Assembly (NCBI GenBank): GCA_963920595.1
Contig: OY986947.1
Coordinates: forward strand, 2,728,001-2,792,000
From: Eimeria praecox
Taxonomy: Eukaryota
Length of the DNA stretch: 64,000 nucleotides
Direction of reading: 5' to 3'
Below are positions 1 through 5,500 of the stretch, in pieces. The notes below the pieces were generated by a model, which ran no database searches, was not told the DNA's origin, and saw nothing but the letters and a program-made list of their open reading frames with translations. The position numbers and the translations under genes were made by a program. Numbering within the stretch: position 1 is the stretch's first letter; each line of letters opens with the position of its first letter.

Positions 1-2500
1 GAAGCCTAAACAGAAAGTGTAAATACAAGCTCGTGACTGCGTTTGGAGTGGCGTGCTCCCCAACGAGGCAGTTGTGTGTATGCGTAGCCAGAAAAGCACA
101 CTAAGGTAGCCCAATAGCTGTGCAACAGAAGCGGTCGCATGGCAACAGAGAATAAACGCTGTTCAAGGAACCACGGGGATAAGGCCAATTGCAAACGAAA
201 TCCGTTGACCAAGCTCCACAAGCCAGAAATAGGGAAGATATTGATTGAATTGGAGGGTGAATCAGGGGGCATACATCGGCTGCATCAAAAGTGCAAGGAG
301 TGATTCCTCGCGGGATGCGACTAGTCGCGCGCAACGCACTTGCTGGATACTCCATAGCCCACAGGAGAAACCCAACCATCAGGGACAATCAACAGAAGGC
401 AAATTACCAGTGCCCGTAGTCTATACACTAGGCAGACGTGCATTCAGCTGTAGCCACATCAAGCTATCCGGCAATGATAAGCAGCTTCGAACCCCCCACG
501 CGCAGTACCAGGTCCAAGGTGCGGAGGTTTGCAACAGGTGCAAGGTACGCACTCGCTGTGCGGTACACACTTGCCTAAAGGGTATAAGCCGCTGCAGCAT
601 TAGATTAGAAAGGGCACAAAGACGCATTAAAGGACCTTGGGAAGACACCCAAGCCCGTCAAAAAGCTCAACCTCCTTCCAAGATGCCACTGCTAACGAAG
701 GTACGAAGTTGGGATGGTGGCGCTCGCCATACAAGCAACACAGCGACCAAGCCAATAGATACAACAAACAGCCTATGCCGTGCAGGCACGTGTCAAACAG
801 CAACACTGCCTTTAAAAATTCAACGGCTCCTGCCTGTCATGAATGATCCATGCAGACAAATGTCCAACATCACAAAATAACCAGGGTTCTGCACAAAACA
901 ACTGAAATAGTTCAAGAAGCATTCAAAGGCTGTGATGTAGCGAAGCTAGACTGTCCGGTTGTTTGCCGTGCGCGAAACGTTTTCTGGGCAGTTAGAGGTC
1001 CTACGAAAAGGCCTCGACACTTCTTCACAGATTGGACGGGAGCCAACAGCAGTAAGTCGGCAGCTTTTGCAGCTAAACCGAATGCGCATATACAAACTCG
1101 TAAATGCGTTTGGTGTGGCCCTTTTTCCAAACTCGGCAGCTGCATTTCCGTGCGGTCAGAAGTAGTACATTAGGGCAGCCCAATAGCTGTGCCAGAGAAA
1201 TTGTGTTATAACAACAGAGAACAAGTTCGGTGCGAGTCAAGAACCTAGGTCTACAGAAATGAACCCCTTTGACCGAGATTGGCAAACGGGAGTAAAGACT
1301 TTGCTTATTGAACCTCAAGGCGAATCAGGATGCGGTTAGGGGCTGCATCAAAACTGCAAGGAGTGATTCCTCGCGGGATGCGACTAGTGGCATCCAACGC
1401 ACTTCCTGCGTACGCTACAGCCCACAGGAGTAATCCAACTATCGAAAACGTTCGACAAAAGGTGCATTGGCAGTGATACGCAGCCTATGCGCTAAGACGG
1501 CAGCATTCGGCTCTAGGAACATCACTCTGCCCGGCAATGATAAGCAGCTTTGGACCGACCACTCGCAGCAGAAGGTCCAAGGTCTGGAGGTTTACCCCAG
1601 GTGCAAGGAACCCACTCGCTGCGTGGCTCAGTGGTCGCTAAAGCGTGTACCCCGCTGCATCGTCTGCTTGTAGAATCACAAAGCGGCGCATTAGAGGACC
1701 TTTGGCAGATAGCAAAGCCCGTCCAAACGCCCAAGTCCCCTCCAAGCTGCCATTGCTGACGAAGTTGGGATGCGGGTCTCGTCATGCATGCAACCCAGCG
1801 GCCAAGCCGACACACCACAGAGCCTGCGCCTCACATATGGGATCAAAAACTATAAAGCAGATGCGAAAACGTCAAACCTCTTCCACCCGTGTGCACACAC
1901 CGATGTTCGGATGTCAAGCATGAAACGATACCCAGGTCTCTGCACAACGCAACAAGAAAGGTTCAAGGGACATTCAAAAGGAGTCGTGACGCTCTATACG
2001 TCCCGCGTTTAGGTCCTGCACGAAGCGTTTTCAGTGCATTCCGAGGTCCTGCAAAAAGGACTCACCATTCCTTCACAGATTGCACGGACGCCAAAGGCAG
2101 GAAGTCGGCAACGTTCCGAGCCTATATCAAACGTGCAAATACAAGCTCGTGGGCTGCCGATTTCGACAGCTGCATGTTTGCTTGTCCACAAAAGTCACAT
2201 TAGGGAAGTCCGGTAGGGCTGTGCCACAGGAACTGAACTGTATCATGAGAGCAGACGCCAACGAGCGTTGAAGGAGTCACCCTGTTCAGGCCCATCACAA
2301 TCGAACAGCCTTGCCGCACGCTGACAAAGAAGGGTAACGACAATATGGATTGAACCTCAAGGCGAGTCACGATGCATTTACGGGCTGGTCAAAACTACAA
2401 GCAATCCTTCCTCGGCGGTGCCGCTTGCCGCAGCCAACGCACTTCCTGCGTACTCCACAGCCCACAGGAACACGCCGGTCATCAAAAACAACCGGTAGAA
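1..2500. repeat. Old, diverged tandem repeat of about 1.05 kb (about 2.4 copies, running off the window start)
   Basis: Homologous anchors recur at about 1040-1070 bp spacing: tgcaaggagtgattcctcgcgggatgcgactagt at about 292 and 1355; caacgcactt.ctg at 332, 1395 and 2435; gcccaatagctgtgc at about 109 and 1178; gaacctcaaggcga at about 1310 and 2353. Confidence 0.85.
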
Positions 2501-5500
2501 GCCAAAATGGCTGCGATGAGGAATGCTAGCCGCATGCGAAATAGGGTGCCAAAGGAAAGAAGTCTTTTGAGCGAGGAAACTGAGGACACCGTCAATCTTT
2601 TCCAGCTGCAATGCAACAGAATTGTCTCAAACCAAGCAAAACCATATCCCAGAGGCCGCAACACAGAGATGATGGTGCAGGCCAACCCAACAAACAGTGA
2701 TCGCGGAGAAATCGCCATACGGGCATTACGCCTGTACCCACTACTCGTTTGGATGTTTGGGGGCAATCACAGTCGTGCACACGGCAACTCAGACAAGCAA
2801 TGCATCGGGCAAATGGTGCCGCGATATTTTGTTCACTGAATTCGTTGCGTAAGAAGGGGCCTGCAACGCACACGCTACGCATTGGCAATGCTTCCCATAT
2901 TCAACATACTCCTGCATACACTCGACAAAGACACACGACACGACAAGGCATGCGCATAGCCACCTGAAAACCGCGGATATGTGATTAAAAACCCTTCTCC
3001 GGCATCAATGCAAGCGCTATTGGCAACTATGTCCACGTGCAAGCACATATCCCACACCCAAAAGAAGCATCGCAAATGCTATCTCATGCAGACTAGTGTA
3101 GAACATATGAGGCGCGCAATCGCAGGCAAGGAGTCGAGGAGCACAGCAGATCACACAGTCACACAAAGCAGCGTGGAGAGTATACCACAAGCAGTGGCCA
3201 CCAACAAATCAAGGGGCACTACAGATACTGCGCCACAGGTGGCTACAGCATTGCACCCAAGTACAGACCATGCAACCGTCACTGGAGCAGGCTTTCCCAA
3301 CAAATCATTCAGCAATGCCTCTAAACCCTCATCAATCCATTGAGTGCACGCGCTCTGAGAAGGAAGAACTCCTACTCGCATCGCGCCGACTTTGGGGCTT
3401 TACGAGGCATCCACCCCGCTTCCAGCGAGCAGCTCAGAGCACGCTGAAGCTTGCGCGGGTGCGTGCCCCTGCTGAAATCGTTGGGCGTACACCAGTGCGT
3501 TGCAGGCCAGACGCGCCTTCATGCCTAGAGCACAATCAAAATGCTAATACTACATGCATTAGAAAAATTCAAGCACTTCTAATAAACAGCACACTCGTAA
3601 TATCTTACAGACAGCGTAAGAGGTGCACCAGATAGGCAGTGATGGCACACCGCGCATCAGGCACAGACCAGCAAGCCGCCAAACGCCTGTCATAAACGTT
3701 GCATCGTACGGAACGAATAGGGCAGGCCAGGTATTCGGCAATCAGAAGATGTGCACAAAGTCATGAAGCTACGCCGTGTAGTCGAAGCCTGCTCCCCAGT
3801 TGCAAGACCATCCCTACGAGTGTTTCGTCAGCCCTATTCAACGCACTCGCTGTCAGCCAAAAACCTTTGTGCATTGTTCGAACTAATGCTGCACACATTG
3901 GACAGAAGGCAAAGTGCTAAAGAGAATACTCATCACAAACTGTGAAGCAAAGATATTGAGACGCAAGCATTCTATGCCAGTGGTGGCGGGATCAGTAGAA
4001 CGCGAGCATGCGCTAGTGCATTTTACGCAGCGATGAAGCGTAACTGCAAATGGTACAGGTGATTTGCCGCAGACAGGAGCTTGCAGGGCGTGCTTCCAAG
4101 AACCCGATCCCCAGAAACAGTGGAACTCCTAGTTGCCAACAGTGCTGTCTGTGTTTGCTGGGAAAGAGAACGACCAGTAGTGGACGCGTTTCTCCACTAA
4201 TCCATCCCAGTAGCAACTGAAGCTTCTACCGGACTTGCCACTGCTTCGCTCTGGTTCTTCGGACCTTTGGTAAGGCATGCAAAGTGTCACAGGATCTCAT
4301 GCAAACGGTTGTCGGAGCATCTAAGCCACAGCAACAAGGGCTGAGAAGAGCAAACGACAGTTTTGGCCCATAATGTGGGTCACGCGCAGCGCGCCACACT
4401 AAATGCAAGACTTCATCTCAAGATGGATCTTCACGGTGGGACGGCCAGACAAAGAGAATACAAGGACACACATAGCACCAGCGAGCTGCGGGAAGACTGC
4501 ACAACAGAGCGCTGTGTCAGGCAAGCAGCAGGTCGATAATACGTGGCAGGTGCTGAGAAGCACGGAGTCATTTAGTTTCTGCTATACTCGAATGTTATGC
4601 TGTAGGTGTAGTATAAACAAATTCACAGAAGAAAGGCGATGGCTGCAGGCGATCGTCAGGAAGCAATGGCTAGCGGATTTGCAGCATTTGTTAATTCTGC
4701 TGCCGACCCGCTAGGTGCACTAAACGCACGGCCTTAAGCAGGCGTGTATAGGCCGCTGCACCGCAGGGCTGACTACCAACGAACAAATGTGGAGCTAGCT
4801 GCATGTGCCGCATTAAGTAGAAAGCTGCAACGCTTAGCGTCTGCTGATGCTGGCAATATCGGCAGGTGTGCAGATCTACAAGCTCACGATATAAAGTAGT
4901 CATGCAGTAGTGCATCCCAGGGGCTCAGCGATTCAAAACGTGGATGTTCGCTCTTTGCATGCAAGTGGCAAATAATGACTAAGCGCGTTGCAAGAAGCCA
5001 CTATCCAGCGTTTCGGCGCCACCCACGAGCAGCCTCATGCTGAAATGTCACGCTAGCCGGTTTGCATATGCACTTTCAAAACCGATCATTCGACATAGGA
5101 GCCCGGCGGTGCCGAATGCTGCAGAACGTGACACGGTGCGCACTCTCTATGCGTTACAGTGCTTTTCGGCGTATCTACACCCCTACAGCGCGCGCTTCGA
5201 GAAGCGCAAAACACCAATTAGAGGACCATGGCCAGACAACAAAGCCAGTCCAGAAGCTCAAGGCCCTTCGAATCTATCACCGCTGAAAACGCCAGGCTCG
5301 AGCCTCTGCAAAATAACTATTTCTCAAACAGCAACACAGGCGAGAACAATACAACACCTCAAACGCGAAAGGGATTATTTGCACAAGCCCATACCCCACG
5401 TGAAAAAACAACCAGCGTTCTGCACAGAAGAACTCATGTAGCTCAAGAAACATTTAAAAGCTCTATAGAGGTTAGGCATCCAGCATTTATGCCGTGCGTA

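What the first reader, a model, noticed from the sequence alone, without database searches (positions are those of the whole stretch)
334..5149. Paralogous micro-exon sites keep their splice signals and change synonymously or conservatively while flanks diverge
Seen: in the diverged copies of the 1.05-kb unit, one site reads CAG|CGA|GTGCG (553-555), CAG|CGA|GTGGG (1616-1618) and TAG|AGA|GTGCG (5144-5146). All three are Arg, and CGA to AGA is one of the few synonymous first-position changes. The other site reads CAA (340-342) versus GAA (1403-1405, 2443-2445), Gln versus Glu, with caacgcac invariant. Changes in the signals (CAG/TAG, GTGCG/GTGGG) stay within consensus. Inference: purifying selection on both the splice signals and the phase-0 codon. 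The sample is very small.
Basis: partly seen in the sequence, partly recalled or inferred. Interest (0 to 1): 0.7.

Follow-up and report, generated by a model that had tools for sequence, protein, structure and literature searches.

The report
Gene spelled one codon per exon
Across the whole 64-kb stretch of an unidentified eukaryote, about 140 three-base units each sit between splice-like signals hundreds of bases apart, and they likely form one gene that spells its protein one amino acid per exon, an extreme layout not yet confirmed in RNA.

Summary
The quoted sites are real, on the minus strand. They are the tail of something larger. HAG-NNN-GTRNG occurs 105 times at spacer 3, against a mean of 16.5 at other spacers and 9 on the plus strand (repeats removed). 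About 140 such sites run the whole window, with a median intron of 357 nt and no sign of longer exons.

Splice letters are conserved in paralogs: 46 of 50 core letters against 70% in flanks. But 3 of 10 paralogous positions have lost the signal. The triplets are no more conserved than flanks (15 of 21), and both triplet differences in a second haplotype are non-synonymous, so codon-level purifying selection is not shown by these copies.

Coding is supported window-wide: the triplets have protein-like composition (p=0.0005) and end in a charged Glu/Arg tail using four Arg codons.

Best reading: one gene built of single-codon exons, grown by tandem duplication of intron-plus-codon units. No RNA run was listed. 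The precedent is Tuber NACHT-ANK codon-sized exons. This scan noted shorter chains (up to about 55) in other genomes, and I found 19 in metagenomes. This one is longer and has long, mostly unrelated introns.

The parts
340..63292 (-). Chain of candidate three-base exons, about 140 (137 with score >=2 in a 154-site parse); may continue beyond both window ends
340..342 (-). One-codon exon candidate, Gln; family with 1403 and 2443
   Evidence: cross-validated score 15.3
553..555 (-). One-codon exon candidate, Arg; family with 1616, 5144 and the dead copy 11620
1403..1405 (-). One-codon exon candidate, Glu
1616..1618 (-). One-codon exon candidate, Arg (donor GTGGG)
2443..2445 (-). One-codon exon candidate, Glu; near-identical copies at 5859, 9279, 12369
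2872..2874 (-). One-codon exon candidate, Arg, not named in the finding
   Evidence: 8.6
3847..3849 (-). One-codon exon candidate, Arg, not named in the finding
   Evidence: 7.4
5144..5146 (-). One-codon exon candidate, Arg (AGA); copy at 8564
6..2469 (.). Old tandem duplication, about 1.06-kb unit with two exons, 67-72% identical
2150..13158 (.). Young tandem duplication, 3.42-kb unit (97-99% identical, two full and two partial copies)
11620..11622 (-). Dead paralog of the 553 Arg site: donor GT lost, at the edge of the homologous block
340..19651 (-). Charged tail segment: 18 of 21 non-paralogous triplets encode D/E/K/R
20079..42941 (-). Middle segment, about 72-75 triplets of mixed protein-like composition in unrelated introns
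23742..23744 (-). Dead 46-nt local duplicate of the 23796 site: acceptor AG lost
43114..53469 (.). 1052-bp unit x about 10, three exons per unit (a Gln-Glu-Gly repeat if spliced)
54606..62488 (.). 1607-bp unit x about 5, two exons per unit (Lys/Asn repeat if spliced), plus a dead site with lost acceptor in each copy (e.g. 61570)
62636..63355 (.). Old (69-70% identical) copy of the 1607-bp unit with sites 62958 (Arg vs Lys) and 63290

Best explanation
About 140 three-base units, each between an AG and a GT-type splice signal, run along the minus strand of the whole window and are likely the exons of one protein-coding gene that spells one amino acid per exon. Shown: the motif, its strand bias, its fixed 3-base spacing, the near absence of longer exons, conservation of the signal letters in old duplicates, and protein-like composition of the triplets. 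Inferred: the spliceosome recognises each 100-2000-nt intron by its own ends (the donor signal lies wholly inside the intron, GTRYGY), probably in 5'-to-3' order so that each triplet is joined to the growing mRNA. Because every exon is phase 0 and 3 nt long, duplicating or losing one adds or removes a single residue without a frameshift. The chain likely grew by tandem duplication of intron-plus-codon units, as seen in four arrays of different ages, after which the introns drifted apart. The predicted product has Lys/Asn and Gln-Glu-Gly repeats, a mixed segment of about 75 residues and a Glu/Arg-rich tail; its family is not identified. The finding's sites are codons of that tail.
For: Spacer spectrum: 105 at spacer 3 vs mean 16.5 (max 25) at 30 other spacers, 9 on the plus strand, repeats removed; 138 sites at score >=2 vs 4-20 at other spacers 0-15, whole window (matrix trained on these sites). 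28 of 32 strongest donors have AG exactly 3 nt upstream, 0 of 4 on the plus strand. Core letters 46 of 50 kept in diverged paralogs vs 70%. Triplets: T at position 1 in 10% vs 25-26% of decoys; 74 middle triplets fit generic protein composition (17.5 bits vs null -28.6 +/- 11.8, p=0.0005). Charged residues 18 of 21 in the tail vs 13 of 72 in the middle (p=2e-8), with Arg spelled by four codons in largely unrelated introns. None of 70 listed second-haplotype differences hits a core or extended signal letter (2.75 expected; weak). The layout exists elsewhere: Tuber codon-sized exons (PMC4986451, PMC10197012, PMC13449251, passages) and 19 of 114 metagenome loci.
Against: No transcript seen. Stop depletion is not significant alone (1 of 105, 2.9-4.4 expected, p=0.06-0.21). 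Triplets are not more conserved than flanks in paralogs (15 of 21). Two of 70 second-haplotype differences fall in triplets (0.9 expected), both non-synonymous. Three of 10 paralogous positions lost the signal. No branch-point motif enriched among 80 sites. No strand- or helix-type periodicity of hydropathy in the middle segment. No start, stop or ordinary exon lies in the window, no homolog is known, and about 10% of called sites are expected to be false.
Confidence: 0.8

Rival explanations
1. The sites are used in splicing but do not code: stepping stones for piecewise removal of one giant intron, or exons of a non-coding RNA, where only the signals and the 3-base spacing matter.
For: Signals conserved while triplet letters change at the flank rate; a radical Ile>Arg difference in the second haplotype.
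Against: Zero-length AG|GT sites are not enriched (11 at spacer 0 vs mean 16.5). Protein-like composition and the sharp switch to charged residues with varied third letters have no reason to exist in non-coding stuffers.
Confidence: 0.08
2. It is the relic of a once-coding one-codon-exon gene that is now decaying.
For: Three dead paralogous sites; non-synonymous haplotype differences; a 1.2-kb microsatellite inside one intron.
Against: 7 of 10 signals survive 25-38% flank divergence; very recent in-register duplications of whole units; no signal letter hit among 70 listed haplotype differences (weak).
Confidence: 0.07
3. The motif is a binding site for a DNA- or RNA-binding protein, unrelated to splicing.
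For: Fixed bipartite spacing and regular recurrence every few hundred bases.
Against: The allowed variants (C/T/A before AG; GTRYGY) follow splice-site rules; 105 vs 9 strand bias; the central letters carry amino-acid-level structure; the same layout lies next to NACHT and ubiquitin-like ORFs in other contigs, between units that look like complete short introns.
Confidence: 0.04

Closest known systems
Codon-sized microexons of Tuber melanosporum NACHT-ANK (nank) genes (Iotti et al. 2012; paper not held; seen only through passages in PMC4986451, PMC10197012, PMC13449251)
   Same: Many 3-base exons, each one codon, in one gene.
   Different: Reported as 'tens' of mini exons in an NLR with ANK repeats and with alternative splicing shown. 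Here about 140 in a row over 63 kb, no ordinary exon, no NACHT or ANK sequence in the window, and splicing not shown.
Schistosoma micro-exon genes, MEGs (PMC10526429 and PMC4015677, passages; PMC4350168, abstract)
   Same: Most of the coding sequence in tiny, mostly frame-preserving exons separated by introns of 0.1-5 kb; invisible to gene predictors.
   Different: MEGs have 10-20 exons of mostly 15 nt (3-81) and a signal peptide. Here all exons are 3 nt and there are about ten times as many.
One-codon chains in metagenome contigs (19 of 114 loci) and in this scan's earlier notes (unchecked)
   Same: Same AG-NNN-GTRYG layout, protein-like triplets, up to 55 sites per locus.
   Different: In the loci inspected, introns are short (median 67-76 nt in 16 of 19) and mostly copies of one another, and the chains sit beside ordinary exons (NACHT, ubiquitin-like). 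Here introns have a median of 357 nt and only 10 of 4449 site pairs have clearly related flanks. No DNA similarity to the window.
Isolated 1-3-nt exons in Coprinopsis cinerea (PMC12230235, passages) and intron gain by tandem duplication (PMC4974935, abstract)
   Same: Exons of 3 nt or less are spliced in vivo; duplication across an exon-intron border creates new introns.
   Different: Those are single events (27 three-base exons in 26 genes), not chains.

Membership tests
Tuber-type codon-sized microexon arrays | Tens of consecutive 3-base exons in one gene | tested here: met
   At DNA level only.
Tuber-type codon-sized microexon arrays | Alternative splicing of the microexons shown in transcripts | not testable with these tools
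   No RNA holder listed.
Tuber-type codon-sized microexon arrays | Host gene is a NACHT-ANK receptor | tested here: inconclusive
   No longer exon and no Pfam hit in 3 of the window's 53 ORFs tested; the gene's ends are outside the window.
Schistosoma MEG | Tiny frame-preserving exons with introns of 0.1-5 kb | tested here: met
   Exons 3 nt, introns 100-1954 nt (the parse enforced a 90-nt minimum).
Schistosoma MEG | 10-20 exons, mostly 15 nt | tested here: not met
   About 140 exons, all 3 nt; no excess at spacers 6, 9, 12, 15.
Schistosoma MEG | N-terminal signal peptide, secreted product | not testable with these tools
   5' end not in the window; no genome held.
Schistosoma MEG | Raised dN/dS | tested here: inconclusive
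   Too few changes: four triplet changes in paralogs (one synonymous), two non-synonymous in the second haplotype.
Recursive splice sites (recalled) | Zero-length AG|GT junctions | tested here: not met
   11 at spacer 0 vs mean 16.5.
Transposon-derived or cloned introns (recalled) | Introns share one sequence family | tested here: not met
   10 of 4449 site pairs with related flanks, all inside local tandem duplications.
Cadherin repeat (by-eye resemblance) | Match to a cadherin-like profile | tested here: not met
   1.3 bits against a profile of 128 bacterial repeats; 3.8% of 2000 shuffles score as high; best of 4096 parse variants 6.0 vs shuffle maximum 8.2. The profile was not itself checked against Pfam.

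The most novel reading that the evidence does not exclude
The gene, including a folded domain, is encoded one residue per exon over at least 63 kb, and has been kept so long that its introns no longer resemble each other. Skipping or duplicating single exons would edit the protein residue by residue, and the organism may hide many such genes in DNA annotated as intergenic.
Probability: 0.4. Interest if true: 0.9.

Novelty: new variant of a known kind. Interest (0 to 1): 0.74.

Why it matters
If spliced as predicted, under 1% of this 63-kb unit is coding and about 140 introns are removed to make about 140 codons. That is the physical lower limit of a frame-preserving exon, repeated well beyond the 'tens' reported for Tuber. 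It would give a natural test bed for how spliceosomes handle exons too short for exon definition when the introns are long. Such genes leave no ORF and give short reads nothing to map to, so they would be missed by annotation; the spacer-spectrum test used here finds them from DNA alone.

Tried and rejected
No whole genome is held, so the gene's ends and other such genes could not be sought.

RNA: no RNA holder listed; two holders, X1 and X2, of one sample, which may be the window's own source. This says nothing about expression. Their contigs gave no joint that matches a predicted intron.

Cadherin resemblance: rejected.

A coccidian origin guessed from memory: not supported (TGCATGCA 6 vs 5.0 expected, no CAG repeats); the organism stays unidentified.

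Branch-point motifs: none of five enriched. GC donors: no excess (12 vs mean 13.3). Longer exons: no excess at other spacers up to 30; unpaired donors at score >=6 number 4 on each strand, at >=4 they are 30 vs 16, so a few longer exons are not excluded. Hydropathy periodicity: none at lags 1-5 and 7, a weak negative value at lag 6.

Near-identical tandem copies: uninformative, 159 differences, 2 on core letters (1.5 expected). I attribute both, by eye, to the doubtful low-score site at 5646/9066, which lacks GT in the copy near 2230.

15734-15875 vs 16853-16998: homologous but holds no site, and the global alignment beyond it is unreliable, so it was left out of the counts.

Rfam: 0 matches. 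Pfam on three window ORFs: 0. Earlier scan notes on this genome or sequence: none.

Literature: nine searches found no chain of this size; DeMarco 2010 and Iotti 2012 were not held. No supplements were read.

The predicted joined protein was not searched against public libraries or folded, so its family is open.
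Full report
Observation. The six sites lie at the stated coordinates on the minus strand. Their paralogy was tested on flanks alone, leaving out the signals. Among 4449 pairs of 95 sites, only 10 pairs stand far above background (scores 54-216 against a 99th percentile of 26). They form four families: 340/1403/2443, 553/1616/5144, 62958/61233 and 62418/55990/54394. A matrix trained on 85 sites outside 1-13158 ranks eight sites in 1-5567 top of 31 candidates.

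What is there. The sites are part of a chain that fills the window. With near-identical repeats and microsatellites masked (39,566 bases left), HAG-N(k)-GTRNG occurs 105 times at k=3 against a mean of 16.5 (maximum 25) for the other 30 spacers; the plus strand has 9 at k=3. A mixture model estimates about 103 true sites in the masked sequence. In the whole window 138 sites score 2 or more, against 4-20 at other spacers; this matrix was trained on the sites themselves. A parse gives 154 sites, 137 of them at score 2 or more, with introns of 100-1954 nt, median 357. Of the 32 strongest donors, 28 have AG exactly three bases upstream, so longer exons are rare or absent. The acceptor is C/T/A-AG with a weak T-rich stretch; the donor is GTRYGY with some information out to +9. 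No branch-point motif was found.

Selection on signals. In seven diverged pairs, 35 of 35 core letters are identical against 70% in flanks, while decoy motifs in the same alignments are kept in 16 of 135 cases. Those pairs were chosen with a site in both copies, so I searched for copies that had lost it and found three: 11620 (donor lost), the 61570-type position in the 1607-bp unit (acceptor lost, or gained at 63290) and 23742. The fair count is 46 of 50 letters (p=2e-4) and 7 of 10 sites (p=2e-4 to 3e-4). Bases next to the signals are not clearly more conserved than distant flanks (68-76% vs 70%).

Selection on codons. The paralogs do not show it: 15 of 21 triplet letters are identical, and the four amino-acid-level comparisons (Arg/Arg, Gln/Glu, Lys/Asn, Arg/Lys) are all mild, but a third to three quarters of random single changes to these codons would be too. 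Contigs of runs X1 and X2 hold a second haplotype at about a quarter of the depth in X1; it may be an allele, a strain or a paralog. Of 70 listed differences (40 of 439, 30 of 30) none hits a core or extended signal letter (1.5 and 1.2 expected) and two hit triplets (0.9 expected), giving Val>Ile and Ile>Arg. This runs against strict codon conservation and is too small to show the opposite.

Evidence that triplets are codons. T is rare at position 1 (10% vs 25-26% in decoys). The 74 middle triplets fit a generic protein composition far better than decoys (p=0.0005; the composition table was recalled). One of 105 is a stop (p=0.06-0.21), at a site only 58 nt from its neighbour. The third letter is mostly A or T, not the G that a donor consensus would favour (recalled), so splicing preference does not explain the composition. 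The order is structured: 18 of 21 non-paralogous tail triplets are charged against 13 of 72 in the middle (p=2e-8; the tail list was picked by hand from high-scoring sites, and the boundary was set after seeing the data). Arg is spelled by CGT, CGC, CGA and AGA.

Mechanism. Shown: layout, signals, duplications of four ages (1052 bp x10, 1607 bp x5, 3.42 kb, 1.06 kb), each copying whole intron-plus-triplet units. Inferred: introns are defined by their own ends and removed largely in order, each step adding one codon; phase-0 three-base exons make gain and loss harmless to the frame, which explains both the arrays and the dead copies. Whether all triplets are included in one mRNA or skipped combinatorially is untested. 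The product's family is unknown; a by-eye cadherin resemblance failed.

Elsewhere. Nineteen pass a filter of 9 or more sites, 4 or more different residues, no residue above 60%, at most one stop and a median spacing of 55-150 nt; the other 95 were dropped, many being simple repeats. Those inspected have short, mostly cloned introns. Two lie beside NACHT ORFs and one beside a ubiquitin-like domain (3 of 3 ORFs tested). None is similar in DNA to the window. The scan's own notes describe seven similar chains in other genomes, the longest about 55 (unchecked, not used as support).

Literature. [quoted passage not shown] Schistosome MEGs have 10-20 exons, mostly 15 nt (PMC10526429, passages; PMC4015677, passages) and raised dN/dS (PMC4350168, abstract). 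Coprinopsis has 27 three-base exons in 26 genes (PMC12230235, passages). Intron gain by tandem duplication is described in PMC4974935 (abstract). Nine searches found no chain of this length or with long unrelated introns; subscription papers are largely missing from the library.

Verdict. Observation confirmed; interpretation half right. The feature is a new, extreme variant of codon-sized exon arrays, with probability about 0.8 of being a coding gene, and it awaits RNA.

Noticed in passing
window 43114-53469: Ten 1052-bp tandem units, over 99% identical, each with three candidate exons, two using AAG acceptors; would encode a three-residue repeat.
   Followed up: partly
window 54606-63355: Five 1607-bp units plus an older 70% copy; each young unit keeps a strong donor whose acceptor AG is missing, while the old copy has the full site at 63290.
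   Followed up: yes
window 27640-28783 and 18114-18173: A 1.2-kb TATATC/TATATG microsatellite that switches motif midway, and a (TA)30 run, both inside predicted introns.
   Followed up: no
window 28900-43100: Runs X1 and X2 hold a second haplotype about 3% different, at roughly 1:3 depth in X1, with patchy divergence; ploidy, strain mixture or paralogy unresolved.
   Followed up: partly
L152, L142, L195, L185, L157, L141, L197, L138 and 11 more loci: Metagenome contigs with 9-55 one-codon exon candidates, mostly between ~68-nt cloned introns; L157 and L141 lie beside NACHT ORFs, L152 beside a ubiquitin-like domain.
   Followed up: partly
L194: 69 AG-NNN-GT sites at 63-65-nt spacing, all encoding Gly: either a satellite or a poly-Gly one-codon array.
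   Followed up: no
L173: A chain of 16 triplets whose ~76-nt introns are more diverged from each other than in the other metagenome loci: a possible intermediate stage.
   Followed up: no
window 15734-15875 and 16853-16998: A 71% identical duplication inside introns, probably the remnant of an older unit duplication in the Glu/Lys stretch.
   Followed up: partly
window 61233, 52950, 41849 and copies: Some triplets end in AG themselves, creating a tandem acceptor whose distal use would give a zero-length exon and drop the residue.
   Followed up: no
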